Shown: piece by piece, positions 48,410 to 59,687 of the stretch
How the letters are laid out: every line of letters begins with the position of its first letter
Numbering within the stretch: position 1 is the stretch's first letter
Made by a program: the position numbers and the translations under genes
Notes under the pieces: generated by a model
Database searches by the model: none
What the model was told of the DNA's origin: nothing
What the model saw: only the letters and a program-made list of their open reading frames with translations
Source: an uncultured Anaerolineales bacterium
GTDB taxonomy: Bacteria; Chloroflexota; Anaerolineae; Anaerolineales; JABWBV01
NCBI GenBank assembly: GCA_964489525.1
Contig: CAZAYY010000010.1
Span: forward strand, 68,934-132,933
Length of the DNA: 64,000 nt
Reading direction: 5' to 3'

Positions 48410-50644
48410 TTACGGGCGAGTCAGGGTAGTCACGTCGCCGCCCATGGCTTCGATGGAGTCATACAAAACCTGAGCAACGTACTTGGCGTTGTGGGTGAAA
48501 GCGCCCGGGTCCTTCTGGTAGTACTGGTAGTTGTATGCAGCCTTGAGCAGGTCGGGGGTAAAGGCATTGAAGCTGATTGCCCGGCCGCTATCGTTCAGAT
48601 CGGCAACGCCATCGCCATCCACATCCAGGAAGAAATACGGATAGGCGTGAGAATCATACAGAATGCCGGTGCCTTTCTCGGTGGCGTAGGCCCGCATGGC
48701 GTCGTACAGTAGGGCAGACAGGCTGTCCAGTTCGGCTTTGATGCCTTCGGCTACATCGCCATCACCGTCATAGTCGTTTTCATCGGCGCCGCGATAGGAG
48801 TAGATATCCTGCGGGTTGGTTTCGGTACGGTGACAATCGGCGCACTCATCCACCTCAATTTCGAGGGCATGGACATTGTGGCATTCGGCGCATTTCACCA
48901 CCGGGTGGGGGGATTGACCGACATATTCTTTGCCAGCGAACTGGTAGGCACCCTGGACATCACCACCGAAAATGGTCGCGCCAGCTGCGAAGTAGTGGAT
49001 GTTGGAGAAGCGAATCGAGGCATCAATCGTGCCGGGGTCTTTGCTTCCCAAAGCCTGGTTCACGGTCACAGTCGAGGAACGACCCTGGTGGCAGAGCAAG
49101 CAGGTGTTGGAGCTGTCGGCAACGTTCTTGCCATCGGCATCCTGGGCAAAACTGACGACCTTGCCAGAGGGGAAGGTGACCGAATTAACCGTGTAGAGGG
49201 AGGGCCATTCTTCGCTGTTATGGCAGGTGGTGCACATAAAGCCGTTGCTGAGCGGGGCAGCAACATTGACGCCCTCTTTAATGAACTGAGGCAGGCCAGT
49301 GGCACTGTGGCACTTGGCGCAACGCCCTGGAACCTCACCATCGGCATCCCAATCGCGGAAAGGCATGGTGCTGCCAGCAAAGTGGCCGGGGTCAATGCGG
49401 TGCATGGCGCTCATATCAATCGGCGCAGCCACAGCGCTGTTCAGGTCTTCCATGGAGTCATACATCAATTGAACCAGGTACTTGGCATTGTGGGCAAAGG
49501 CACCGGGATCTTTGACACTGAGCTGGTAGTTGTAGGCAGCCCGCAGCAAGCGCGGTGTCCAGGCAGGGTAACCTACTTTGCGGCCTTCGGCGTTGGTATC
49601 AGCAGCGCCGTCGCCATCGGCATCCTGAAAGAAGTACGGGTAAGAGGAAGAATCATAGACAATACCAGTGCCAGCAACTTCGGAGGCATAGGCACGGATC
49701 AGGACGTAGAGTGCCTCTTGCATGGTTTCGAGTTCAGCAGCGATGCCTTCGGCCACATCGCCATCGCCATCATAGTCGGCCAGGGAGCCAAACATGCGGA
49801 TGGCTTTCAAATCTTCCACGCTGGTAACGCCTTCGTGACAATGGGCGCAGCTTTCAACCTCCACTTCCAGGGTGTGGGGGTTGTGGCAGCTAATGCAGGT
49901 ATCGAAACCTTCCACATGGCGGAACTGAATATCATACATCTTGCCATCATATTCGTAGCCACCCTTGGCCTGGGTGCCATACAGGGTTGCGCCAGCGGGG
50001 TAGTAGTGGATGTTGATAAAGCCCAGGCTGGAGGTGCTGCCATCGGCATTGGTGATTGCGGCGGGCACGGCATCAGGAGCTTCCACGCCGCCAAAGCGCT
50101 CAATGGCAGCGTTCACACTCACGGTAGACGCGCGACCCTGGTGACATTCCATACAGCGGGAAGCATCGCCAAGACCGGTCAATTCAATGCCGGAGGGGAA
50201 GACCACGCTGTCTTTCACAGCGGTGACGGAGTTGTGGCAGGCCACGCAGGTAACGCCCATGGCGGCGGGAGCGTGGGCAGCATCCACTTTTCCGGCCTCA
50301 GAGCCATCCAGGCCGAGGAAATCCAGGTATCCATCAGCAGTGTGGCACTTGGCGCAGGATGTCGGCACTTCGCCGCTGCCATCCCAGTAGCGGAAGGCAG
50401 GTGCAGCCGCATCCGCGTGCCCGGAGGTCATCCAGGCTTCAAAGAAGGGCATATCGGGGCCAGGTTCGGGGGTAATGATCACCTCAACGATTTTTTCTTT
50501 CTCCACCACCTGGGTTTGAACGACGACGCGCGTCACTTCAACCTCGACGGTTTCGATCACTGGTTCGGCCTGGCAGCCCGCAACCAGCAGGGCAAAGCCC
50601 GCTAACGCAAGAAATATGAACATAAATTTTTTGATTTGCTTCAC
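48410..50644 (-). CDS. decahaem c-type cytochrome lipoprotein with internal two-fold duplication
   Basis: GTG start at 50644 with AGGAGG 6 nt upstream. Lipobox FALLVAGC. Ten CxxCH motifs: CAKCH, CVACH, CMECH, CISCH, CAHCH, CAKCH, CTTCH, CLLCH, CAECH, CADCH. Four DxDGDG motifs. Confidence 0.9.
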   Translation of the reverse strand: MKQIKKFMFIFLALAGFALLVAGCQAEPVIETVEVEVTRVVVQTQVVEKEKIVEVIITPEPGPDMPFFEAWMTSGHADAAAPAFRYWDGSGEVPTSCAKCHTADGYLDFLGLDGSEAGKVDAAHAPAAMGVTCVACHNSVTAVKDSVVFPSGIELTGLGDASRCMECHQGRASTVSVNAAIERFGGVEAPDAVPAAITNADGSTSSLGFINIHYYPAGATLYGTQAKGGYEYDGKMYDIQFRHVEGFDTCISCHNPHTLEVEVESCAHCHEGVTSVEDLKAIRMFGSLADYDGDGDVAEGIAAELETMQEALYVLIRAYASEVAGTGIVYDSSSYPYFFQDADGDGAADTNAEGRKVGYPAWTPRLLRAAYNYQLSVKDPGAFAHNAKYLVQLMYDSMEDLNSAVAAPIDMSAMHRIDPGHFAGSTMPFRDWDADGEVPGRCAKCHSATGLPQFIKEGVNVAAPLSNGFMCTTCHNSEEWPSLYTVNSVTFPSGKVVSFAQDADGKNVADSSNTCLLCHQGRSSTVTVNQALGSKDPGTIDASIRFSNIHYFAAGATIFGGDVQGAYQFAGKEYVGQSPHPVVKCAECHNVHALEIEVDECADCHRTETNPQDIYSYRGADENDYDGDGDVAEGIKAELDSLSALLYDAMRAYATEKGTGILYDSHAYPYFFLDVDGDGVADLNDSGRAISFNAFTPDLLKAAYNYQYYQKDPGAFTHNAKYVAQVLYDSIEAMGGDVTTLTRP

Positions 50645-50780
50645 AATCCACCTCCTAAAATGGATAAAGTGTGCAAGGCCTGGTAAGCGTTTTTTGAAAA
50701 ATAACCGGATGGGGTATGTTGGTTTCGGCACGCCTGCCAGGCCGTTTCCGGTTATTCTGTTTTTTGGCTGGTGGACAAAC

Positions 50781-51122
50781 TTATGCTTTCAAAATGTCAA
50801 CCAGGTCTTCAATTTTTCCTACGGGGAGGTTCTCGCTGGACACAACCTGGATTGTGTCTTGCTGCGAGTTCAGCCGCAGGATTTTCAAAGCCGGGTTTGA
50901 AAACATCAGTTCGCTCAGCGAACACAACTGCAAGGCTTCTGGGTCATGGGCATCCGTGATTACGGCGCTGGGGGCGCACTGATGGATACGGGCTGCAGCA
51001 TCAGCATCAAACGGATTCACCAGGCAAACCTCAATTTGCTGAGGAAATTGCTGCAAGCGCCGGGCAATTCCTTCGGCAAACAACGAGTGATTGGATAAGA
51101 TGACAACCGTTTTTACTGACAT
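50781..51122 (-). CDS. small protein with degenerate receiver-like (pseudo-receiver) pattern
   Basis: Start at ATG 51122 (MSVKTVVILSNHSLFAEGIARRL...). Alternating beta/alpha pattern like CheY, but the acidic pocket DD is replaced by SN. The assignment is weak. Confidence 0.45.
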   Translation of the reverse strand: MSVKTVVILSNHSLFAEGIARRLQQFPQQIEVCLVNPFDADAAARIHQCAPSAVITDAHDPEALQLCSLSELMFSNPALKILRLNSQQDTIQVVSSENLPVGKIEDLVDILKA

Positions 51123-51357
51123 ACAATACACCAAAACAAAAGCCACACACAGCTTTCAACAGGATTATATTAATAGAATATGAGCCGTTTGGGTATCCTC
51201 CCTTCGCGCCAAAACGGGTGTCATTAAAGATAGGTGAAAAAAAGCACAACTAACCAATAGTATTAATTGTAAATTCATCGAAAGATTGTAAAAACTTAGC
51301 CTTAAGGGTTAAATCAGGGGGGTTTTGGAGGGATTTTGGCCGGTTTTTCAAAACAGG

Positions 51358-51426: not shown

Positions 51427-52941
51427 ATGTACGGGCTTAATCTGACCATTGTCTACTTTTTTTACGGCCTGGCTTTTTTTACCATGGGCGTGATTGTGCT
51501 GCTGGAGCGCGACCGTGGCTCAGACCAACGCCTGCGGCATGCTTTAGGCCCCCTGGCCGTTTTTGGGTTAGTGCATGGCGCCAATGAGTGGTTGGAGATG
51601 TTCATGAACATTGGAACCCTGCCCACGCTCGGTTCGTGGGGGTTAATCTTGAATGGGGTTCGCCTGGGCACACTGGCATTTTCGTTTATATCTTTAACCG
51701 CCTTTGGCGCATCTTTGCTTTCACCCAACGAAACCGTGCGGCGGTACAGCCTGCTGCTGCCTGTGCTGCAAACTGCGATCTGGGGGTTTGGTGTTCTCAT
51801 CTTAAAGGACCACTATACCGCCCCGCAGCGGATTTGGGATGTGGCCGATGTGTGGAGCCGCTACACCCTGGGCGTTCCCTCGGCGGTAATTGCAGCCATA
51901 GGTTTGGTTGCCCAACAGCGCGCCTTCCGCAAAGCAGGCATGGCTCAGTTTGGGCGCGACAGCCTGTATGCCGCCCTGGCTTTTGCCTGGTATGGCTTGG
52001 TGGGGCAAATATTCGTCCACCCCAGTGCGCTGCCCCCTTCAACCCACATCAACCAGGACCTGTTTTTCTTTTATTTTGGCTTTCCTGTGCAAATTTTCCG
52101 GGCGATAACGGCAGCAATTGCCGCAGCATTTGTGGTTCGCTTTTTACGTGCTTTTGAAGTGGAACGGCAGCGCCAATTAAATGAACTGCAAGAGGCCAGG
52201 GTGGAAGAAGCCAGGCGGCGCGAAATTTTGCGCGGCCAGCTACTGCGCAGGGTAGTGATGGCGCAGGAGGCCGAACGGCAGCGAGTGGCGCGGGAACTGC
52301 ACGACGAAACCGGCCAGGCGCTGACCGCAATCGGCCTGGGGCTGCGCGGCGTAACCAACTCCATGTCCTCCAACCCCGAACAGGCCGCTCAAAAAATGCG
52401 CCAGATTGAATTGATGGCCTCTCGCTCGCTGGATGAACTGCGCCACCTGATTGCCGACCTGCGCCCCTCGCACCTGGACGAATTGGGCCTGCGCGCCACC
52501 CTGCGTTGGTATTTTGGCGAGGTGCAGGCTCGCACAAAACTCCAGGTCCACCTGGAAGTTTTAGGAGATGAAGTTAACCTGCTGCCCGAAGTGCGGATCG
52601 CACTCTATCGCATCATCCAGGAATCCATCACCAACACCATCAAACATGCCCAGGCCAGCGAAATTAACGTCAAACTTGCCTATTTGCCCGCTGCTGTTCA
52701 AGCGACCATTGAAGACAACGGCCAGGGGTTCGACATGCGCAAACTGCAGCAGCCAGGCATTTATTCCTGGGGGCTGTTAGGGATGCAGGAGCGTACCTCA
52801 CTGCTTGGCGGCCAGTTTAACCTGGTTTCCTGGCCAGGCGAAGGAACCCGCATCAGTGTTACACTGCCTTACCAACCGCAGGCATTGGTAGAAAACCTGC
52901 TAGGAGATGAAGACCATGAGCACCAGAATTCTGTTGGTTGA
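51427..52941 (+). CDS. sensor histidine kinase (HisKA_3/NarL-partner type) with polytopic membrane sensor domain
   Basis: About 7 TM helices in the first 240 aa. RVARELHDETGQALTAI (H-box) and HATPase_c (EDNGQGF, GLLGMQER). Confidence 0.88.
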   Translation: MYGLNLTIVYFFYGLAFFTMGVIVLLERDRGSDQRLRHALGPLAVFGLVHGANEWLEMFMNIGTLPTLGSWGLILNGVRLGTLAFSFISLTAFGASLLSPNETVRRYSLLLPVLQTAIWGFGVLILKDHYTAPQRIWDVADVWSRYTLGVPSAVIAAIGLVAQQRAFRKAGMAQFGRDSLYAALAFAWYGLVGQIFVHPSALPPSTHINQDLFFFYFGFPVQIFRAITAAIAAAFVVRFLRAFEVERQRQLNELQEARVEEARRREILRGQLLRRVVMAQEAERQRVARELHDETGQALTAIGLGLRGVTNSMSSNPEQAAQKMRQIELMASRSLDELRHLIADLRPSHLDELGLRATLRWYFGEVQARTKLQVHLEVLGDEVNLLPEVRIALYRIIQESITNTIKHAQASEINVKLAYLPAAVQATIEDNGQGFDMRKLQQPGIYSWGLLGMQERTSLLGGQFNLVSWPGEGTRISVTLPYQPQALVENLLGDEDHEHQNSVG

Positions 52942-53566
52942 TGACCACGCCGTAATCCGCATGGGACTGCGCATGCTGCTGGAGGGGGAAGAAGACATTG
53001 AAATTGTGGGTGAAGCCGACTCCGCAAGGGAAGCGCTGCAATTTGTAAGCAAAACCCAACCCGATGTAATTTTGATGGATGTGAATCTGCCCGATAAATC
53101 TGGCATTGATGTCACCAGGGCGATCAAAGCCCAATGGCCGAAAATTGCCATTGTGGCCCTGACCATTCACGAAGACCAGGAATACTTTTTTAAAATGCTC
53201 CAGGCAGGCGCCAGCGGTTATGTCCCCAAACGGGCTGCGCCGGAAGAACTGCTCACGGCCATTCGCGCCGCTGCCCAGGGGGAGGTCTATTTATACCCAT
53301 CTATGGCCAAGCTGCTGGTGCAAGATTACCTCTCCCCAGATCAACAAGAAAGCAACAAAACCGCCCTGGACGGGCTGACCGACCGGGAGCAGGATGTTCT
53401 GGCACGCCTGGCCGATGGCGAGAGCGTGGGCGAAATTGCCGATGCTCTGTCCATCAGCCCGAAAACGGTTGCCCGCCACCGTGAAAACATCATGCGCAAA
53501 TTGAATTTGCACTCTCGAGGCGAATTGGTGCGCTATGCCATCCGCAAAGGGATTGTTGAGGCGTAA
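52916..53566 (+). CDS. NarL/LuxR-family response regulator
   Basis: ATG 52916 is preferred because AGGAG lies 9 nt upstream (the track start is 52907). RILLVDDHAVIR, DVILMDVNLPD, and the LuxR HTH LTDREQDVLARLADGESVGEIADALSISPKTVARH. Confidence 0.92.
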   Translation: MSTRILLVDDHAVIRMGLRMLLEGEEDIEIVGEADSAREALQFVSKTQPDVILMDVNLPDKSGIDVTRAIKAQWPKIAIVALTIHEDQEYFFKMLQAGASGYVPKRAAPEELLTAIRAAAQGEVYLYPSMAKLLVQDYLSPDQQESNKTALDGLTDREQDVLARLADGESVGEIADALSISPKTVARHRENIMRKLNLHSRGELVRYAIRKGIVEA

Positions 53567-53635
53567 GCGGCAGCAGGTGTGTAGTTTGTCGTGGGGGAAT
53601 TTGAGGGAAACCACAAAGGCCATGATTAAAAACAA

Positions 53636-53668
53636 ATCCTAAAGGTTTTCGAAACCTTTAGGATTTTT
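53636..53668 (+). terminator. intrinsic terminator after the response regulator gene
   Basis: ATCCTAAAGGT / ACCTTTAGGAT stem, 7-nt loop, TTTTT. Confidence 0.65.
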
Positions 53669-53705
53669 CTTAGGGTTTTCCCCGGCATGGGGTAAACAAC
53701 CCATT

Positions 53706-53745
53706 TGTGAATATGTTCACAAACCCACTTGTGACTACTTTCACA
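53706..53745. promoter_or_regulatory. two tandem perfect CRP/FNR-family-type sites TGTGA-N6-TCACA
   Basis: Site 1 at 53706-53721 (TGTGAATATGTTCACA) and site 2 at 53730-53745 (TGTGACTACTTTCACA), 24 bp centre to centre. Each sits in a 24-bp direct repeat unit CCCA(T/C)TTGTGA...TTCACAA(A/G). Confidence 0.5.
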
Positions 53746-53966
53746 AGCCCATTTTGGCTTGCCAACCATGGGTAACAAACCCCTTTTTAATGTCCCACTA
53801 ATGGGACTTTTTTGATTAAAAAGATTGGGTAAACACCGAATTTACCAAACCCTCCTTCCCTCGTACACTCAAGCTAGAACATTCGAAGAACGGCTGTGAA
53901 GGCAAAAGCCAATTCACCGTTATTTGAAAGCAAAAGTGCATGGACTGATCCATGCGGAGGTGTGAA

Positions 53967-54083
53967 ATGTCTGAAATCTTAATCCCAATTGTGCTGCTGT
54001 TCTTCTTCATCCTGCGGATTGTCATCCCCGCTGGATTGTTGCTGGCAATTGGTACCTGGCTGCAGAAGCGCTTTGCTTACTAA
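53967..54083 (+). CDS. 38-aa hydrophobic peptide (single TM helix)
   Basis: Below the ORF-track size cut-off. GGAGG 7 nt upstream of the ATG. MSEILIPIVLLFFFILRIVIPAGLLLAIGTWLQKRFAY. First gene of the plus-strand cytochrome operon. Confidence 0.45.
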   Translation: MSEILIPIVLLFFFILRIVIPAGLLLAIGTWLQKRFAY

Positions 54084-54110
54084 AGCCAAACCAAACAAAA
54101 GGAGGCCGGT

Positions 54111-54467
54111 ATGAACGAGTTGTTTGAAATTATCTCTCTGCTGATGGGATTTATGCTGCGGTTAGGGCTGCCCATTGTGGTGACGGTTCTGGGCATCATG
54201 CTGTTGCAACGGCTGGATTCCCGCTGGCAGCTCGAAGCAGAAAAGAACACCACCCTGGCAAACCTCAAACCGGGCGACTACCTGAACAAAGTTCACTGCT
54301 GGGATATTCGCGAGTGCTCCCCTGAAACCCGCTCGCAGTGTTCTGCCTATCAACAACCCGATGTTCCCTGCTGGGAAAGCCACCGAGTCGGTGGGAAATT
54401 ACAAGAATCTTGCCGCAGCTGCGCAATTCGCAAACGCGTGGTTGCCATTTCAACTGTCAATCTATAA
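54111..54467 (+). CDS. membrane-anchored Cys-rich protein (six Cys, two C-W motifs; two-CW-like domain)
   Basis: AGGAGG RBS. N-terminal TM helix, then VHCWDIRECSPETRSQCSAYQQPDVPCWESHRVGGKLQESCRSC. Confidence 0.65.
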   Translation: MNELFEIISLLMGFMLRLGLPIVVTVLGIMLLQRLDSRWQLEAEKNTTLANLKPGDYLNKVHCWDIRECSPETRSQCSAYQQPDVPCWESHRVGGKLQESCRSCAIRKRVVAISTVNL

Positions 54468-54482
54468 CACAGGAGGCATTCC

Positions 54483-55385
54483 ATGATTGCTCGTTTTATT
54501 CGCATGATTTTCGTTGGGCTTTGTTTTGCCCTGCCCTTTGGCCTGGTGACTGCGGTTGCCCAGGCTCAAACCCTTCAACCCCCCGCAGATGGCGAATGCC
54601 AGGACTGCCATGAAATCACCCAGGTCAAGTGGGCCAACAGCGCACACGGACAGGCCCTCAGCAGCCCCACCTTCCAGGCCACCTGGCAGGAAAAAGGCTC
54701 CCCGGCCGAATGTCTGGCCTGCCACACCACAGGCTTTGACCCGGAAACCGGCACCTACGCTTACGAAGGCGTTTCTTGCTCCACCTGCCACTCCTCCGAC
54801 ACGGGCAACCACCCCGATGAAATTATGCCCACGGATGTATCCTCCAGAATGTGCGGTGAATGCCACCTGGACACTTACGCCGAATGGGAAACCAGCACTC
54901 ACGGGGCAGAAAACCAAACCTGTGCCACCTGCCACGATGTTCACTCCACATCCATCAAAGCAGCCGAAGCACAGGAATTATGCCAATCGTGCCACCTCGA
55001 TGAAGTGCACTACTACCAATACACCTCGCACAGCGAAGAGGGACTGCTCTGCACCGACTGCCATGTCAATGTCTCTGGTTCAATCATGGGCGAAGGACAC
55101 GCACAGCGTAAGCACACCTTTACCGTTGACCTGAACACCTGCAACGAATGCCACAGCCAGGGGCTGCACTACCCAAGCGGGCAGTTGATGGCGGAAGCGG
55201 GCATTGGCCAGGCACCCCAACAATCTGGGCTGGCCATGCCCATTGACGGGCACACCGTGGTTGCAGAAACCACTCCGTCCAGCCCCTTCAGCTTTGCCAT
55301 CCTGGCGGCGCTGGTAGGGATGGCCGTTGGCATGGTGATCTCTCCACTGTTGGAACGCTGGTATCGCCGCAACACATCCCTCTAA
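54483..55385 (+). CDS. octahaem c-type cytochrome with signal peptide and C-terminal TM anchor
   Basis: Eight CxxCH motifs: CQDCH, CLACH, CSTCH, CGECH, CATCH, CQSCH, CTDCH, CNECH. C-terminal FSFAILAALVGMAVGMVISPLL. Confidence 0.9.
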   Translation: MIARFIRMIFVGLCFALPFGLVTAVAQAQTLQPPADGECQDCHEITQVKWANSAHGQALSSPTFQATWQEKGSPAECLACHTTGFDPETGTYAYEGVSCSTCHSSDTGNHPDEIMPTDVSSRMCGECHLDTYAEWETSTHGAENQTCATCHDVHSTSIKAAEAQELCQSCHLDEVHYYQYTSHSEEGLLCTDCHVNVSGSIMGEGHAQRKHTFTVDLNTCNECHSQGLHYPSGQLMAEAGIGQAPQQSGLAMPIDGHTVVAETTPSSPFSFAILAALVGMAVGMVISPLLERWYRRNTSL

Positions 55386-55421: not shown

Positions 55422-56222
55422 ATGGAAGAGACCAAAACCCAAAGCACCAAGCCCCGCTTGCGCATCAACCGGCGTGAATTCGTCAAAATCGCCGCACTGG
55501 GCACAGCCGCCGCTCTGGCACCAGCCCTGGCAAAAAACACCCTTGCTTCGCCTTCTTATGCACACGCCCCACACGGCAGCCCCTACCGCTGGGCTATGGT
55601 CATTGACCAGGGCAAATGCGTGGGATGCAACTACTGCGTGAAAGCCTGCAACGCCAACAACGACACCAACCCCGACATTAAGTGGATCAAGATGTACGAA
55701 ACTCAGGAACTGCGCGGCGGAAAAACCTACCTGCCGGTGGCCTGCCAACACTGCGCCAACCCGCCTTGCGTGGGGGCCTGCCCGGTTCAAGCCACGTACC
55801 AACGAGCCGACGGAATTGTGATGATGGATTACGACCGCTGCATCGGCTGCCGCTACTGTGAAGTAGCCTGCCCATACGGCGCACGCTCGTTCAACTGGGA
55901 AAGCTTCAAAGACGAAAACCCTTACGTACCCGCCTACGGCACACCAAATGTACCTCGCCGAGAACGCGGCGTTATTGAAAAATGCACCTTCTGCTACTCC
56001 AAAATTGACCGGGGCCTCGAACGCGGCCTGGTTCCTGGCGTGGACGCAGCAGCGACCCCGGCCTGTGTGCTGGCTTGCCCGCATGGCGCCCGCTTGTTTG
56101 GCGACTTGAACGACCCCGATTCCCCCGTCAGCAAAGCACTTGCCGAAAACCACTATTTCCGCCTGCAGTCGGATTCTGGCCTTGAACCCAGGGTTTATTT
56201 CTTGCCTGCTCGCAAATCATAG
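55422..56222 (+). CDS. Tat-exported 4x[4Fe-4S] ferredoxin subunit (NrfC/PsrB/DmsB-like)
   Basis: Twin-arginine signal RINRREFVKIAALGTAAALA. Cys clusters CVGCNYCVKAC, CQHCANPPCVGACP, CIGCRYCEVACP, CTFC...CVLACP. Confidence 0.9.
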   Translation: MEETKTQSTKPRLRINRREFVKIAALGTAAALAPALAKNTLASPSYAHAPHGSPYRWAMVIDQGKCVGCNYCVKACNANNDTNPDIKWIKMYETQELRGGKTYLPVACQHCANPPCVGACPVQATYQRADGIVMMDYDRCIGCRYCEVACPYGARSFNWESFKDENPYVPAYGTPNVPRRERGVIEKCTFCYSKIDRGLERGLVPGVDAAATPACVLACPHGARLFGDLNDPDSPVSKALAENHYFRLQSDSGLEPRVYFLPARKS

Positions 56223-56232
56223 GAGATTGAAG

Positions 56233-57492
56233 ATGGTCGCAGCATTACGCAACTTCCAATTTACACGATTTCATGCCTGGGTACTTTTCCTGGGGGCTGT
56301 CATTCTTTCCGGTCTGGTAGCCGCAATTATGGTCTTTGCCCAGGGTTTGTGGATCACCAACCTGAACGACCTGGTGCCCTGGGGCTTATGGATTGGCATT
56401 GACCTTTCTTCCATCGCACTCAGTGCAGGCGCTTTCCTGCTTTCCGCTGTGGTGTACCTGGTTGGCATCAAAAAGTTTGAACCCATCGCTCGCACGGCTG
56501 TGTTTGTGGGCCTGATTGGTTACTCCATGGCGCTGATGACGCTGATTATGGACATTGGCCGCCCCGACCGCTTCTGGCATGCCCTGGCCTTCTGGAACTA
56601 CCACTCACCGCTCTGGGAAGTGTCCATGTGTATCGCCATGTACTTCACCGTGCTGCTGCTGGAAGCCATGCCCATCATCGCTCGCTGGGAGTGGCTGGCA
56701 AAAACCTTCCCCGTGCTGGCCAAAAAGATGACCCACATTCACCACTACGCTCCGGTTCTCGCCATTGCTGGCCTGGCCCTTTCGGTAATGCACCAATCAT
56801 CCCTCGGCGCAATGTACGGGATTATGAAAGCCCGCCCAATTTGGTACCGCCCCAGCATGGCAGGCATGTTCATCCTCTCGGCGATGATTGCCGGGCCCGC
56901 CCTGACCCTGCTGATTTCCATGATCTCCGCCCGCCTGACCGACCGGGCCAAAGTGAACGATAAACTGGTGGAACAAGTTAGCTACTATATCGGTTGGGGA
57001 CTGGTCGCCATGCTTTATGTCCGCTTTTGGGACACCCTGGCCATGCACTACACCTACCAACCCGGGCGCACCGAAGGTCTGGAAATGCTGACCAAAGGTC
57101 AGCTGGCCTTCAACTTCTGGGGGCTGGAAATTTTCCTCGGCATCTTGCTGCCACTGGTGGTGCTGCTTACGGGCAAACTGCGCCGGATTCCGGTGGTGCG
57201 AATGATTGCCCTGGCCTCTGTGGTAATTGGGCTGATCGCCTTCCGCTGGGATACCAACATGGTCGGGCAGTTGGTGGTTTTTACCAATCTTTCGCAAACC
57301 TATGTGACCGGTTTTACCAGCTACACCCCGAATTTGATTGAAATTTTAGTTGGTGGCGCAGTGGTTGGCTATGGCATGCTCGCCATTTCACTCGGCATTC
57401 GCTACCTGCGGCTGGTGGACCACACCGACGTTCACGGCGAACATGAAGAAGCCCATGTTGAGCAGATGGTGCTCAGCCCTGCTGCCGATTGA
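56233..57492 (+). CDS. NrfD/PsrC-family polytopic membrane quinol-interacting subunit
   Basis: Start at ATG 56233 (AGGAG upstream), 11 nt after the Fe-S gene stop. About 10 TM helices. Gene order follows the NrfC-like gene. Confidence 0.85.
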   Translation: MVAALRNFQFTRFHAWVLFLGAVILSGLVAAIMVFAQGLWITNLNDLVPWGLWIGIDLSSIALSAGAFLLSAVVYLVGIKKFEPIARTAVFVGLIGYSMALMTLIMDIGRPDRFWHALAFWNYHSPLWEVSMCIAMYFTVLLLEAMPIIARWEWLAKTFPVLAKKMTHIHHYAPVLAIAGLALSVMHQSSLGAMYGIMKARPIWYRPSMAGMFILSAMIAGPALTLLISMISARLTDRAKVNDKLVEQVSYYIGWGLVAMLYVRFWDTLAMHYTYQPGRTEGLEMLTKGQLAFNFWGLEIFLGILLPLVVLLTGKLRRIPVVRMIALASVVIGLIAFRWDTNMVGQLVVFTNLSQTYVTGFTSYTPNLIEILVGGAVVGYGMLAISLGIRYLRLVDHTDVHGEHEEAHVEQMVLSPAAD

Positions 57493-57833: not shown

Positions 57834-59561
57834 TTATTTTTCTGGCGCGCCTGCTTGAATCCAGGCCTGCAATGCTTCCAACTCATCGCCTAACATTTTG
57901 CCAAAATGGGGGGTAGATTGGGTTTGGCGAGTGAAAACCGGGCTGGCAGCAGGGTCACCCGGAACCAGGCCAGGCCCACTGCTTCCGCCTGCCAATGCGC
58001 CCGTATAAGTACTCAGGTCCAGGCTGCCTTCCGGATCTATCCCGCTATGACAGAAGATGCAGCGTCCATCAAAAACCGCCTTAAAAGTATCATCATAGGT
58101 TTGAGGGGCGCCAGGAATCAGGAAGGGGCTGGTGTTGAGCAAAATGTAGAGCTGTTGGTCCAAAATGGCAGTAAGCTCAGGCGCATTCAGGCCAATATAT
58201 TCCCAATCAGCGCCATGGCAGGCTTCATTACCACAGAAAGAGGTATCAATGGGTGGTTTGCCTTCCAACTTGGTGTAGAGAATTTTCGGGTCGCTGGGTG
58301 TGTGGCAGGCGGCACACGAGGAGTCAATCGCCTTACCATGCAGAGCGATCCAACTGCTGTGCGTATGGGATGCGGGCTGCTGTCCGGTGACAATTTCAAT
58401 ATTGCTGGTGAGTGCGCCGGGTTTGGAAATCACAGGTATGGCATGGCAAAGGTTGCACTCTAACCGGATGGCTTCCTGGGTAGAGGTGAGGTGTTTGCCA
58501 TCATGGCAGCGGAAGCAGCCAGGATCATCTTTGTGCCCCAGGTTGTTCGGGTGGGTGTCCCAATCAATAAGCTGGTCAGGAAAAACAATTTGGTTGTAGA
58601 TATCCTTCAAGGTAAAGACTGCCTGGTCAATTTCAGCCTGGCGGCTGGCATAAACTTCTGGGTAGTTCGCCTGGTAGTAAGCCGGCAGAGAATCAATCGC
58701 ATCGATGGCATCTGCGGCTTGTTCGTAAGATTTGTCAATGGCTTCTACGGCCAGTTGGTAAATGAAGGGCAAATCGGTGGAAATGAGCTGCTTTTTGATT
58801 GCCTCTGAAACCGCCTCTTCAGGTGTTGGCATGGAATGGGTTACTCGATTGTGGCAGGTAATGCAGTCCATCCGCTGCAGCGTGGCCCCGGCAACGTCGT
58901 TTGGTGTCAGCCCAGAAGCCAGGTCATAATATTCTTTGATGGTGCCATCCGGGTTGACAACGCGCACATAAGGAATCTCTTGCTCGCGGTCATCGGTAGC
59001 AAGGTAATAAACCTCACTTTCGATATGCCAGTGAATCCCAAGGCCCAGGCCTTCGCGCTGGCTTCCACCGCCTGTTTTCAGCACCAGGAAAGTGCTTTGG
59101 GGGGTGTTGGCTTCGTTATTCTGGTAGCTTCGCAGTTCCCGCAGGCTGTCATCGGAAAATTTTTCAGGGAAGTGACAGGTTTCGCAAGTCTCACGGGCCG
59201 GGCGCATGTTTTTGGCGTGGATTGGGTATTCGTAATCCTGTGTCACCATCACAACGACATGGCGCAGGTCGCCTGCTTTACGTGAAATACGGGTAGCGAT
59301 GAAGTCGCGTCCAATGTGACATTCAACACATTGAACCCGGGCATGCGGAGAACGCAGGTAAGCACTATACTCTGGCGGCATGGTATGGCAGGAAGTTCCA
59401 CAAAATTCGGTGGAATTGGTGTAATCCCAAACATAGGCACCCGCAGTCAGCATGGTCAGCGTGAGCACACCCAAAACTGCAAAGGGCATCAGGCGCAGGG
59501 CGACCGGTGTGCCCGGTGGGGGCAGAAAGAACCGTTTAATTGCAGTCCAAATAACCTTCAT
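57834..59561 (-). CDS. membrane-anchored multihaem cytochrome: NapC/NirT-like N-terminus plus further haem domains and a C-terminal PSCyt-like monohaem domain
   Basis: ATG 59561 with AGGAGG 5 nt upstream. N-terminal TM helix. Seven CxxCH motifs plus CGTSCH (CX3CH) and CGNEACH (CX4CH). C-terminal CIFCHSG...LDLSTY...GGSSGPGLVPGDP...WIQAGAPE. Confidence 0.88.
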   Translation of the reverse strand: MKVIWTAIKRFFLPPPGTPVALRLMPFAVLGVLTLTMLTAGAYVWDYTNSTEFCGTSCHTMPPEYSAYLRSPHARVQCVECHIGRDFIATRISRKAGDLRHVVVMVTQDYEYPIHAKNMRPARETCETCHFPEKFSDDSLRELRSYQNNEANTPQSTFLVLKTGGGSQREGLGLGIHWHIESEVYYLATDDREQEIPYVRVVNPDGTIKEYYDLASGLTPNDVAGATLQRMDCITCHNRVTHSMPTPEEAVSEAIKKQLISTDLPFIYQLAVEAIDKSYEQAADAIDAIDSLPAYYQANYPEVYASRQAEIDQAVFTLKDIYNQIVFPDQLIDWDTHPNNLGHKDDPGCFRCHDGKHLTSTQEAIRLECNLCHAIPVISKPGALTSNIEIVTGQQPASHTHSSWIALHGKAIDSSCAACHTPSDPKILYTKLEGKPPIDTSFCGNEACHGADWEYIGLNAPELTAILDQQLYILLNTSPFLIPGAPQTYDDTFKAVFDGRCIFCHSGIDPEGSLDLSTYTGALAGGSSGPGLVPGDPAASPVFTRQTQSTPHFGKMLGDELEALQAWIQAGAPEK

Positions 59562-59687
59562 CACAACCTCCTTGTAAGAACACAGTTTGTGAAAAAAATC
59601 GCAACCTGTCCCAGGAACGCTGAGAGCCTGCCTGCGGCAGACTCTCAGCCCTCCCCGATTAAATTTTCAACAGCCTTTGAACGACTG

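What the first reader, a model, noticed from the sequence alone, without database searches (positions are those of the whole stretch)
53706..53745. Two tandem, perfect TGTGA-N6-TCACA (CRP/FNR-family consensus) operators upstream of the NrfCD-type cytochrome operon
TGTGAATATGTTCACA and TGTGACTACTTTCACA each match the classical CRP-type consensus at all ten core positions. They lie 24 bp apart centre to centre, inside two 24-bp direct repeat units. Their location is between the RR terminator (53636-53668) and the first ORF of the plus-strand operon (53967). No CRP/FNR-family gene is present in the window, so the cognate regulator is encoded elsewhere. Two perfect sites by chance in a 300-bp intergenic region is very unlikely. 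This implies cAMP-, redox-, CO- or NO-type global control layered on the local two-component system.
Basis: partly seen in the sequence, partly recalled or inferred. Interest (0 to 1): 0.55.

Follow-up and report, generated by a model that had tools for sequence, protein, structure and literature searches.

The report
Probable Rex redox operators, not CRP sites
The two perfect palindromes are real and conserved regulator-binding sites upstream of a respiratory cytochrome operon, but they fit the operator of the NADH-sensing repressor Rex better than a CRP/FNR site, and they sit on top of a separate array of binding sites for the neighbouring two-component regulator; this is an ordinary kind of control in an unstudied bacterial lineage.

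Summary
Observation confirmed. TGTGAATATGTTCACA (53706-53721) and TGTGACTACTTTCACA (53730-53745) are the only perfect TGTGA-N6-TCACA sites in 64 kb. They lie in two 24-bp direct repeats, between the response-regulator terminator and the operon.

Interpretation partly supported. With one more base on each side, both are 18-bp palindromes. They match the Rex operator consensus TTGTGAA-N4-TTCACAA at 14/14 and 13/14 positions. Their flanks do not fit the E. coli CRP 22-mer.

In 39 orthologous Anaerolineae-type promoters, similar boxes are about 24-fold enriched. Their positions vary, and in four loci they lie over or just after the -10/TSS, which is repressor geometry.

The local NarL-type regulator has a different motif of its own, the 'G-box' ATGGGGT-N4-ACCCCAT. 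G-boxes sit in fixed slots upstream of a conserved promoter (-35 at 53841, -10 at 53864, TSS about 53876). This places the two boxes at about -138.5 and -162.5, and box 1 directly abuts the distal G-box.

Best model: a redox (NADH/NAD+) repressor vetoes activation by the two-component system of a Qrc/DsrO-like cytochrome-quinone module.

The regulator's identity is therefore inferred (about 0.55 Rex, about 0.2 CRP/FNR-type). This is a new member of a known kind.

The parts
51427..52941 (+). Sensor histidine kinase: multi-pass membrane N-terminus, HisKA_3 and HATPase_c domains
   Evidence: Pfam; translation; syntenic in 20 or more related loci
52907..53566 (+). NarL/LuxR-type response regulator (receiver plus GerE HTH). 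Recognition helix ISPKTVARHRENIMRKL is near-invariant across loci
53634..53666 (.). Hairpin of 15 pairs with T-runs on both sides: terminator of the kinase-regulator operon
   Evidence: inverted repeat I1
53687..53704 (.). Distal G-box ATGGGGTAAACAACCCAT (1 mismatch to ATGGGGT-N4-ACCCCAT), centre about -180.5. Presumed site of the local response regulator. Directly abuts box 1
53698..53745 (+). Two 24-bp tandem direct repeats, each made of a G-box right half (AACCCAy) plus a TTGTGA..TCACA box. Removing these 48 bp would put the distal G-box at the conserved -97 slot
53705..53722 (.). Box 1, TTGTGAATATGTTCACAA: 14/14 match to the Rex operator consensus; centre about -162.5 from the predicted TSS
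53729..53746 (.). Box 2, TTGTGACTACTTTCACAA: 13/14 match to the Rex operator consensus; centre about -138.5
53768..53785 (.). G-box 2, ATGGGTAACAAACCCCTT, in the conserved -64 slot (centre about -99.5 from the TSS)
53792..53807 (+). Short hairpin GTCCCACTAATGGGAC followed by T6. Flagged as terminator-like, but it is built from G-box half-sites (CCCA/TGGG) and covers the -32 slot. Its role is unresolved
53824..53841 (.). Promoter-proximal G-box ATTGGGTAAACACCGAAT overlapping the -35 (centre about -43.5). Part of the block AAAgATyGG-N8-CsrATTTAC, conserved in about 39 loci
53841..53846 (+). Predicted -35 hexamer TTTACC
   Evidence: Conserved TTTAC, 16-18 nt spacer, TAnnnT in 39 of 40 orthologous promoters
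53864..53869 (+). Predicted -10 hexamer TACACT (17-nt spacer). The TSS is inferred at about 53876
   Evidence: the TSS is inferred, not mapped
53876..53966 (+). Predicted structured 5' leader, with hairpin 53938-53955 next to the Shine-Dalgarno GGAGG
   Evidence: MFE -28.5 kcal/mol, z = -3.4
53967..54083 (+). 38-aa hydrophobic peptide gene, first ORF of the operon
   Evidence: tblastn matched the 38-aa peptide only in the window's own copy (L002), but gene callers place a 38-44-aa ORF at the same position in L083, L085, L086, L089, L090 and L091
54111..54467 (+). 118-aa membrane-anchored Cys-rich protein; no Pfam or NCBIfam family
54483..55385 (+). Multihaem c-type cytochrome (DmsE/decahaem-like domains)
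55422..56222 (+). 4Fe-4S protein of the NrfC/DsrO/QrcC type (NCBIfam DsrO 237 bits, cut-off 200)
56140..57492 (+). NrfD/QrcD-type integral membrane quinone-interacting subunit
59587..59604 (.). Weaker Rex-like box TTGTGAAAAAAATCGCAA (2 mismatches), about 20 nt upstream of the SD of the minus-strand NrfH/NapC-like cytochrome gene 57834-59564. Possible second member of the same regulon

Best explanation
The two boxes are operators for a dimeric global repressor of the Rex type, which senses the NADH/NAD+ ratio and is encoded elsewhere in the genome. They are superimposed on a promoter that is activated by the adjacent NarL-type two-component system. The operon (small peptide, Cys-rich membrane protein, multihaem cytochrome, DsrO/NrfC-like FeS protein, NrfD/QrcD-like membrane subunit) has a conserved promoter with a weak -35 (TTTACC 53841-46; TACACT 53864-69). 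The phosphorylated regulator most likely activates it by binding 'G-boxes' (ATGGGGT-N4-ACCCCAT): one overlaps the -35, and others occupy fixed upstream slots. In this genome a 48-bp tandem duplication has placed two TTGTGAA-N4-TTCACAA boxes between the distal G-box, which box 1 abuts with no gap, and the -64-slot G-box. When NADH/NAD+ is low, the repressor would occupy the boxes and interfere with assembly of the activator array (anti-activation). When NADH accumulates, it would leave the DNA and allow full activation. What is shown: the sequence match, the cross-locus enrichment, the distinct local motif, and the promoter conservation. What is inferred: the identity of the protein, the TSS, the direction of regulation, and the anti-activation step.
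For: (1) Box 1 has 0 and box 2 has 1 mismatch to TTGTGAANNNNTTCACAA. This is the general Rex consensus (PMC6391272, citing Ravcheev 2012) and the EMSA-defined S. aureus consensus TTGTGAAW4TTCACAA, where sites without mismatch bind best (PMC2883068). The chance expectation for a perfect 14-position match in 64 kb is about 2e-4.
(2) The flanks outside the CRP core agree with Rex at 7 of 8 positions here. In boxes of other loci found by the core alone, the inner flank is A in 11 of 16 half-sites against a 29% background.
(3) Phylogenetic footprint: 39 non-redundant orthologous promoters (13.7 kb) hold 10 core sites with up to 1 mismatch against 0.42 expected. In 507 kb of related loci there are 11 Rex 18-mers with up to 2 mismatches against 1.45 expected, and 8 of the 11 lie just upstream of this operon type.
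(4) Repressor geometry elsewhere: the box is centred +40/+41 from the -35, that is over the TSS, in L083 and L055. It lies immediately after -10-like hexamers in L067 and L074. It abuts G-boxes in L034 and L040, as it does here.
(5) The local regulator has its own motif. G-boxes occur in the window only in this intergenic region. They are about 90-fold enriched (41 in 12.7 kb against 18 in 511 kb) and sit in fixed slots at -8, -33, -64, -97, -109 and -119. The regulator's recognition helix is near-invariant whether or not TGTGA boxes are present. L089, L090 and L091 have G-boxes but no Rex-like box.
(6) Target logic: Rex is known to control respiratory and cytochrome genes, and in S. aureus it represses nitrate/nitrite-respiration genes that are also activated by the NreBC two-component system (PMC2883068). 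Rex orthologues are reported in Chloroflexi (PMC6682613, citing Ravcheev 2012).
Against: No rex gene lies in the window or in about 0.5 Mb of related loci (tblastn). Whether this genome, or Anaerolineae in general, encodes Rex could not be tested: two homologue searches returned only Deinococcota. At about -138.5 and -162.5 the boxes are far upstream of where Rex normally represses, so an indirect anti-activation mechanism has to be invoked. The 24-bp spacing is not an integral number of helical turns. The TGTGA-N6-TCACA core is shared with CRP-family sites, and a Crp/Fnr protein (ArcR) binds Rex boxes in vitro (PMC2883068). Only about 8 of 39 orthologous promoters carry such a box, so it is a facultative add-on. 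The two boxes are a duplication, so their joint perfection is partly inherited.
Confidence: 0.55

Rival explanations
1. One reading: the boxes are sites for a CRP/FNR-family regulator (sensing cAMP, O2, CO or NO) encoded elsewhere, acting as a distal co-activator or as a repressor.
For: All ten core positions of TGTGA-N6-TCACA match in both boxes. CRP-family proteins of many phyla use this core (established knowledge). S. aureus ArcR (Crp/Fnr family) binds Rex-type boxes in vitro (PMC2883068). The cross-locus enrichment is equally compatible with any global regulator that reads this core.
Against: The flanks fit Rex, not the E. coli CRP 22-mer (more than 3 mismatches of 16), and the FNR spacing TTGAT-N4-ATCAA is not met. 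The positions (-138.5 and -162.5 here; from -179 to +41 in other loci) show no fixed class I or II phasing. Boxes over the TSS in L083, L055, L067 and L074 point to repression. No CRP or FNR homologue is in the window or the related loci. In the S. aureus precedent the in-vivo regulator of such boxes turned out to be Rex, not ArcR (PMC2883068).
Confidence: 0.2
2. The boxes are variant sites of the local NarL-type response regulator, with the same 7-4-7 palindrome geometry as its G-box, so no second regulator is involved.
For: Both motifs are 18-bp palindromes with identical geometry, and each repeat unit carries a G-box right half (AACCCAy). Hybrid boxes occupy G-box slots: TGGGAAAAATTTCACA at -65 in L018 and TGTGAATTCCATCCCA at -64 in L025. 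GerE-type HTH proteins can read TGTG-type palindromes, for example the TraR box ATGTGCAGATCTGCACAT (from memory). L034, whose helix carries a K-to-N change, has two TGTGA boxes and few G-boxes.
Against: The G-box GGG triplet is essentially invariant, and all four half-sites here read GTG instead. The boxes here are not in G-box slots (-103 and -127 against slots at -97 and -119). The recognition helix is the same in loci with and without TGTGA boxes. Similar boxes occur over the TSS (L083, L055) and in L067, which shows no two-component system and no G-box. Near-matches also occur at other genes in the window, where G-boxes are absent.
Confidence: 0.1
3. The boxes are a non-functional by-product of a recent 48-bp tandem duplication, or belong to some other unknown element.
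For: The two boxes are copies of one unit (83% identity). They are far from the promoter. The nearest relatives lack them at this position.
Against: Independent, non-homologous occurrences of the same palindrome in 7 or 8 other lineages of this promoter. The four differences between the copies fall on the spacer, the outer flank and one weakly specified position, and never on the TGTGA/TCACA core. A perfect 14/14 palindrome is very unlikely by chance.
Confidence: 0.05

Closest known systems
Rex operator (ROP) of the NADH/NAD+-sensing repressor Rex (Streptomyces coelicolor, Bacillus subtilis, Staphylococcus aureus, Thermus; comparative regulons of Ravcheev et al. 2012)
   Same: An 18-bp inverted repeat TTGTGAA-N4-TTCACAA with an AT-rich spacer, matched at 14/14 and 13/14. 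It lies upstream of respiratory and cytochrome genes. Multiple sites per promoter are known (two at S. aureus ldh1, PMC2883068). In orthologous loci the boxes overlap the TSS, as classical ROPs do.
   Different: Here the boxes lie about 140-160 bp upstream of the predicted TSS and are interleaved with activator sites. The target is an uncharacterised cytochrome-NrfCD (Qrc/DsrO-like) module in an Anaerolineae-type genome. No rex gene has been seen, and binding is untested.
CRP/FNR-family sites (E. coli CRP AAATGTGA-N6-TCACATTT; S. aureus ArcR)
   Same: Identical 5-6-5 core TGTGA-N6-TCACA. ArcR binds Rex-type boxes in vitro (PMC2883068).
   Different: The flanks do not fit the CRP 22-mer. There is no class I or II positioning. 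The FNR half-site and spacing are not met. No family member is encoded nearby.
S. aureus nitrate/nitrite respiration promoters, controlled by the NreBC two-component system together with Rex
   Same: The same regulatory logic: a two-component system activates anaerobic-respiration genes, while Rex adds an NADH/NAD+ veto on the same promoters (PMC2883068). From my own knowledge, NreC is a NarL-family regulator like the one here.
   Different: Different sensor (here a multi-pass membrane kinase with no recognisable sensor domain), different activator motif (G-box), and different target complex. Nothing here has been tested experimentally.
DosR/DevR box of Mycobacterium tuberculosis (TTSGGGACTWWAGTCCCSAA, from memory). 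This applies to the neighbouring G-boxes, not to the two boxes themselves
   Same: A palindrome with a GGG triplet at the same distance from the dyad. It is read by a NarL-family regulator: DevR is among the closest solved structures to this one (3c3w, E 1e-29). Multiple boxes lie upstream of the promoter, one of them overlapping the -35.
   Different: The half-site is TGGGGT rather than SGGGAC. The regulator is nearer to VraR/LiaR by sequence (5hev, E 3e-40). The kinase has no GAF/haem domain.

Membership tests
Rex operator (ROP) | 18-bp inverted repeat TTGTGAA-N4-TTCACAA | tested here: met
   0 and 1 mismatches of 14; consensus as given in PMC6391272 and PMC2883068
Rex operator (ROP) | AT-rich 4-bp spacer (W4 in S. 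aureus) | tested here: inconclusive
   Spacers are TATG and TACT, 3 of 4 W in each. The general consensus allows N4
Rex operator (ROP) | A Rex protein (winged-helix PF06971 plus Rossmann PF02629) encoded in the genome | not testable with these tools
   None in the 64-kb window or in 0.5 Mb of related loci. Homologue searches returned only Deinococcota. Presence at phylum level is reported only in the literature (PMC6682613)
Rex operator (ROP) | Operator overlaps or closely follows the core promoter of a redox or respiratory gene (repression) | tested here: not met
   At this locus the centres are about -138.5 and -162.5 from the predicted TSS. The feature is met in the orthologous loci L083, L055, L067 and L074
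Rex operator (ROP) | Binding abolished by NADH and favoured by NAD+ | not testable with these tools
   Needs EMSA or ITC with the purified protein
CRP/FNR-family site | Core TGTGA-N6-TCACA | tested here: met
   10/10 in both boxes
CRP/FNR-family site | Extended 22-bp CRP consensus flanks (AAA..TTT), or FNR TTGAT-N4-ATCAA | tested here: not met
   Both boxes have more than 3 mismatches of 16 to the 22-mer. The FNR half-site and spacing are absent (sequence). The flank consensus is that of E. coli and may differ in other phyla
CRP/FNR-family site | Activator positioning near -41.5, -61.5, -71.5 and so on, in fixed phase with the promoter | tested here: not met
   -138.5 and -162.5 here. In related loci the offsets range from -179 to +41 relative to the -35
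CRP/FNR-family site | A cNMP-binding/HTH_Crp regulator in the genome | not testable with these tools
   None in the window or the loci by tblastn with E. coli CRP and FNR.
Site of the local NarL-type response regulator (G-box) | TGGGG-N6-CCCCA palindrome with an invariant GGG | tested here: not met
   All four half-sites read TGTGA. For the G-box matrix
Site of the local NarL-type response regulator (G-box) | Occupies one of the conserved slots (-8, -33, -64, -97, -109, -119 from the -35) | tested here: not met
   The boxes are at -103 and -127

The most novel reading that the evidence does not exclude
The boxes do not work as a classical promoter-occluding operator. Instead they form part of a composite, interdigitated array: G-box, box, G-box half-site, box, G-box half-site. 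In this array a redox-sensing repressor and the phosphorylated NarL-type regulator compete for abutting sites 140-180 bp upstream of the promoter. A 48-bp tandem duplication would then have rewired a two-component-controlled respiratory operon into a two-input (signal AND NADH) gate. A variant of this reading is that the boxes are read by a regulator that is neither Rex nor CRP.
Probability: 0.2. Interest if true: 0.5.

Novelty: new member of a known kind. Interest (0 to 1): 0.35.

Why it matters
If correct, this gives a concrete and testable regulatory model for a widely conserved but uncharacterised cytochrome/NrfCD (Qrc/DsrO-like) respiratory module of Anaerolineae-type Chloroflexota. A dedicated two-component system, with a newly defined G-box motif and fixed site architecture, switches the operon on. 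In some lineages an NADH/NAD+ sensor vetoes it. The case also shows that a 'perfect CRP site' in a Gram-positive-like or Chloroflexi genome should first be checked against the Rex consensus, as happened historically in S. aureus. It does not reveal a new kind of mechanism.

Tried and rejected
(1) Rfam scan of 53300-54300 with permissive thresholds gave only chance-level hits, so there is no known riboswitch or leader.

(2) The sigma-70 consensus scan found no promoter. The promoter was instead found by cross-locus conservation.

(3) The genome-contig scan with the cytochrome found a single 47%-identical Anaerolineales MAG with only 620 bp upstream, which was uninformative.

(4) A look-up of the window's own response regulator and cytochrome gave only a 2.3-kb duplicate contig. 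The rest of the genome could not be reached.

(5) Two searches for Rex homologues, meant to show Rex in Anaerolineae, returned only Thermus, Meiothermus and Trueperaceae relatives. Literature searches for Rex in Anaerolineae found nothing. The Ravcheev 2012 paper itself is not held.

(6) The window-wide excess of near-matches was considered as evidence for a regulon. It was largely discounted. 59315 is a CXXCH coding artefact, 50629 overlaps the GTG start of the 773-aa cytochrome gene, and the others lie next to unrelated genes (HtrA, unknown ORFs). Only 59587, upstream of the NrfH-like cytochrome, is suggestive.

(7) The hairpin at 53792-53807 was considered as a terminator that would separate the boxes from the operon. 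This was not adopted, because it is made of G-box half-sites and lies within the conserved activator array. It remains unresolved.

(8) A dispersed repeat or mobile element as the origin of the 24-bp unit was rejected: there is no other copy in the window.

Full report
OBSERVATION. TGTGAATATGTTCACA lies at 53706-53721 and TGTGACTACTTTCACA at 53730-53745, with centres 24 bp apart. Both sit inside two 24-nt direct repeats that are 83% identical (53698-53721 and 53722-53745). They are the only perfect TGTGA-N6-TCACA matches in the 64-kb window. With up to one mismatch there are 9 matches against 1.29 expected. The 24-nt unit is not a dispersed repeat. Two caveats apply. The boxes are duplicates of one unit, so they are not independent events. 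Some near-matches elsewhere are coding artefacts, because CXXCH haem-motif codons (TGT-GAn-nnn-TGT-CAC-A) spell the pattern inside cytochrome genes.

CONTEXT. Upstream lie a HisKA_3 histidine kinase (51427-52941) with a multi-pass membrane N-terminus and a receiver/GerE response regulator (52907-53566). A strong hairpin with T-runs follows at 53634-53666. Downstream is an operon of:
- a 38-aa hydrophobic peptide (53967);
- a 118-aa membrane-anchored Cys-rich protein (54111);
- a multihaem cytochrome (54483);
- a DsrO/NrfC-type FeS protein (55422; NCBIfam DsrO 237 bits against a cut-off of 200);
- an NrfD/QrcD-type membrane subunit (56140).
Together these form a cytochrome:quinone module of the Qrc/Dsr/NrfCD kind. 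Homologues are from Chloroflexota (Anaerolineae, Promineifilaceae, Ardenticatenaceae, Ca. Leptofilum), and the closest is only 57% identical.

RELATED LOCI. A metagenome scan with an alignment of cytochrome homologues gave 80 loci. Seven more came from look-ups of close homologues. The kinase-regulator pair is syntenic directly upstream of the operon in about 20 loci. The regulator is much better conserved (65-82% identity) than the cytochrome (31-57%).

THE PROMOTER AND THE LOCAL REGULATOR'S OWN MOTIF. Aligning the regulator-to-operon intergenic regions revealed two features that the sigma-70 consensus scan had missed.
- First, there is a block AAAgATyGG-N8-CsrATTTAC followed after 16-18 nt by TAnnnT. 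It is present in 39 of 40 promoters. In the window this gives a -35 of TTTACC (53841-53846), a -10 of TACACT (53864-53869) and an inferred TSS near 53876.
- Second, there are 18-bp palindromes ATGGGGT-N4-ACCCCAT, here called G-boxes. Within the whole window, G-boxes with up to 3 mismatches occur only in this intergenic region (53687, 53768, 53824), apart from one chance hit. Across loci there are 41 in 12.7 kb of promoter regions against 18 in 511 kb elsewhere. Their centres cluster in fixed slots at -8, -33, -64, -97, -109 and -119 relative to the first T of the -35.

The G-box geometry and its GGG triplet resemble the DosR/DevR box (from memory). The regulator's nearest solved relatives are VraR, DevR, NarL and DesR. 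The G-boxes are therefore the best candidates for the sites of the local regulator. The proximal one overlaps the -35 (centre about -43.5), as expected for an activator of this family. This assignment is an inference; no binding data exist.

WHERE THE TWO BOXES SIT. Relative to the predicted TSS they are centred at about -162.5 and -138.5. Box 1 (as an 18-mer, 53705-53722) directly abuts the distal G-box (53687-53704). Each 24-bp repeat unit consists of a G-box right half (AACCCAy) plus one box. If the 48 bp were removed, the distal G-box would move from offset -145 to -97, which is exactly the conserved slot. The boxes therefore look like a tandem duplication inserted into a pre-existing activator array.

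WHAT THE BOXES ARE. Extended by one base on each side, they read TTGTGAATATGTTCACAA and TTGTGACTACTTTCACAA. This is the operator of the redox-sensing repressor Rex. The general consensus is TTGTGAANNNNTTCACAA (PMC6391272, citing Ravcheev et al. 2012). The EMSA-defined S. aureus consensus is TTGTGAAW4TTCACAA, where consensus-perfect sites have the highest affinity, NADH abolishes binding and NAD+ enhances it (PMC2883068). The boxes match at 14/14 and 13/14 positions. They do not come within 3 mismatches of the E. coli CRP 22-mer, and they lack the FNR half-site and spacing.

CONSERVATION OF SIMILAR BOXES.
- In 39 non-redundant orthologous promoters, the CRP-type core alone (up to 1 mismatch) occurs 10 times against 0.42 expected.
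- In the non-window sites, the inner flank is A, as in Rex's GTGAA, in 11 of 16 half-sites against a 29% background.
- In 507 kb of related loci, the 18-mer with up to 2 mismatches occurs 11 times against 1.45 expected. Eight of these lie just upstream of this operon type.

The positions of these boxes are not fixed. Offsets from the -35 are -179, -127, -120, -103, -86, -71, -65, -64, -40, -31, -28, +40 and +41. In L083, the closest relative that has the regulator, and in L055, the box covers the TSS. In L067 and L074 it follows -10-like hexamers directly. In L034 and L040 it abuts a G-box, as in the window. Variable placement, TSS overlap and abutment to activator sites point to a repressor or anti-activator, not to a class I or II activator.

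IS IT THE LOCAL REGULATOR AFTER ALL? Several points argue against this.
- The recognition helix ISPKTVARHRENIMRKLNLHSR is essentially invariant in loci with and without TGTGA boxes.
- The G-box GGG is invariant, whereas all four half-sites here read GTG.
- The boxes here are not in G-box slots.
- L089, L090 and L091 keep the promoter and G-boxes but have no such box.
- L067 has a near-perfect box but no visible two-component system or G-box.

Some points remain in favour. Hybrid boxes occupy G-box slots in L018 and L025. L034 has a K-to-N change in the helix together with two TGTGA boxes. GerE proteins can read TGTG-type palindromes, as with the TraR box (from memory). I rate this rival at about 0.1.

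REX VERSUS CRP/FNR. Sequence alone cannot settle the question. In S. aureus the same boxes were first ascribed to the Crp/Fnr protein ArcR, which binds them in vitro. Genetics then showed that Rex is the in-vivo regulator (PMC2883068). The same paper provides the closest functional precedent: nitrate/nitrite-respiration genes activated by the NreBC two-component system and repressed by Rex.

Neither a rex nor a crp/fnr gene is present in the window or in the related loci. Rex orthologues are reported for Chloroflexi at phylum level (PMC6682613, citing Ravcheev 2012). I could not show them for Anaerolineae or for this genome. On flank fit, repressor geometry and target logic, I put Rex at about 0.55 and a CRP/FNR-type protein at about 0.2.

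MECHANISM PROPOSED. Steps marked 'inferred' are not shown by any result here.
1. The membrane kinase senses an unknown signal and phosphorylates the regulator (inferred).
2. The phosphorylated regulator binds the proximal G-box over the weak -35, together with the upstream G-boxes, and activates the operon (inferred from conservation and family behaviour).
3. At a low NADH/NAD+ ratio, Rex dimers occupy 53705-53722 and 53729-53746. Because box 1 abuts the distal G-box, and G-box half-sites are interleaved with the boxes, Rex hinders assembly of the activator array (inferred).
4. When NADH rises, Rex leaves the DNA and the operon is fully induced. This provides a quinone-linked cytochrome route for electrons (inferred).

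A weaker box (59587-59604, 2 mismatches) lies about 20 nt upstream of the ribosome-binding site of the convergent NrfH/NapC-like cytochrome gene (57834-59564, minus strand). It may belong to the same regulon.

WEAK POINTS. The distance from the promoter is atypical for Rex. The 24-bp spacing is out of helical phase. The hairpin plus T6 at 53792-53807, between the boxes and the promoter, is unexplained. The TSS has not been mapped. The regulator gene has not been seen.

VERDICT. It is right that a global regulator is layered on a local two-component system, and probably right that the signal is redox. It is probably wrong about the protein family. This is a new member of a known kind of site (a Rex-type operator) in an unstudied lineage, at an unstudied respiratory module. 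Interest is modest. The by-product, a well-defined G-box regulon and promoter architecture for a conserved Anaerolineae two-component system, is at least as useful as the original finding.

Noticed in passing
window 53687-53704, 53768-53785, 53824-53841; about 39 related loci (e.g. L040, L047, L069, L083): A conserved 18-bp palindrome ATGGGGT-N4-ACCCCAT ('G-box') sits in fixed slots (-8, -33, -64, -97, -109, -119 from the -35) upstream of a conserved promoter AAAgATyGG-N8-CsrATTTAC-N17-TAnAcT. It is probably the regulon signature of the syntenic NarL-type two-component system. As far as I could find, it has not been described.
   Followed up: yes
window 59315-59330 (minus strand); L034:5221, L005:480, L020:5271 and others: CXXCH haem-binding codons (TGT GAn nnn TGT CAC A) generate perfect or near-perfect TGTGA-N6-TCACA matches inside multihaem cytochrome genes. 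This is a systematic false-positive source for CRP/Rex motif scans in cytochrome-rich genomes.
   Followed up: yes
window 57834-59564 (minus strand): The real gene here is a 576-aa NrfH/NapC-like multihaem cytochrome on the minus strand, conserved downstream of nrfD in L085, L086, L088 and L089. I read the plus-strand ORFs 57906-58463 and 58836-59285 as likely antisense shadows, although they also gave weak tblastn hits elsewhere. A Rex-like box with 2 mismatches lies at 59587-59604, just upstream of the gene's ribosome-binding site.
   Followed up: partly
window 54111-54467 and 53967-54083: A 118-aa protein with an N-terminal membrane helix and a C-terminal seven-Cys motif (CW..C..C....PCW....C..C) precedes the cytochrome in most loci with sufficient upstream sequence, but matches no Pfam or NCBIfam family. 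Ahead of it is a roughly 38-44-aa hydrophobic peptide gene, called at the same position in the closer relatives. The function of both is unknown.
   Followed up: no
window 53876-53966: The predicted 5' leader folds more stably than shuffles (-28.5 kcal/mol, z = -3.4). It has a hairpin (53938-53955) adjacent to the Shine-Dalgarno sequence and a 12-nt direct repeat TGAAgGCAAAAG (53897 and 53925). It might add post-transcriptional control.
   Followed up: partly
window 53792-53807: A GC-rich hairpin GTCCCACTAATGGGAC followed by T6 lies between the boxes and the promoter. The scan flags it as terminator-like, but it is composed of G-box half-sites. Its role is unresolved.
   Followed up: partly
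window 50629-50646 and the 773-aa cytochrome gene 48410-50731 (minus strand): The likely true start of this lipoprotein-type multihaem cytochrome is the GTG at 50644, 7 nt after AGGAGG, giving MKQIKKFMFIFLALAGFALLVAGC. The mechanical ORF start at 50731 is probably wrong. A Rex-like site with 2 mismatches overlaps this start codon and is probably chance.
   Followed up: partly
L029, L030, L032, L033, L036, L039, L044, L046, L060 (divergent region between the 773-aa cytochrome gene and the operon): A sub-clade shares conserved elements GATGAATGTAAT-N4/5-TTTAyA and GTGAAT-N5/6-ATGTCA upstream of the G-box array. They may be the divergent promoter or a further regulator site.
   Followed up: no
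window 50781-51146 (minus strand) and 51232-51249: A 121-aa ORF with no family match lies between the 773-aa cytochrome gene and the kinase gene. In the divergent region upstream of the kinase there is a weak box AGGTGAAAAAAAGCACAA (4 mismatches to the Rex consensus), resembling the GCACA-type boxes of L040, L051 and L083.
   Followed up: no
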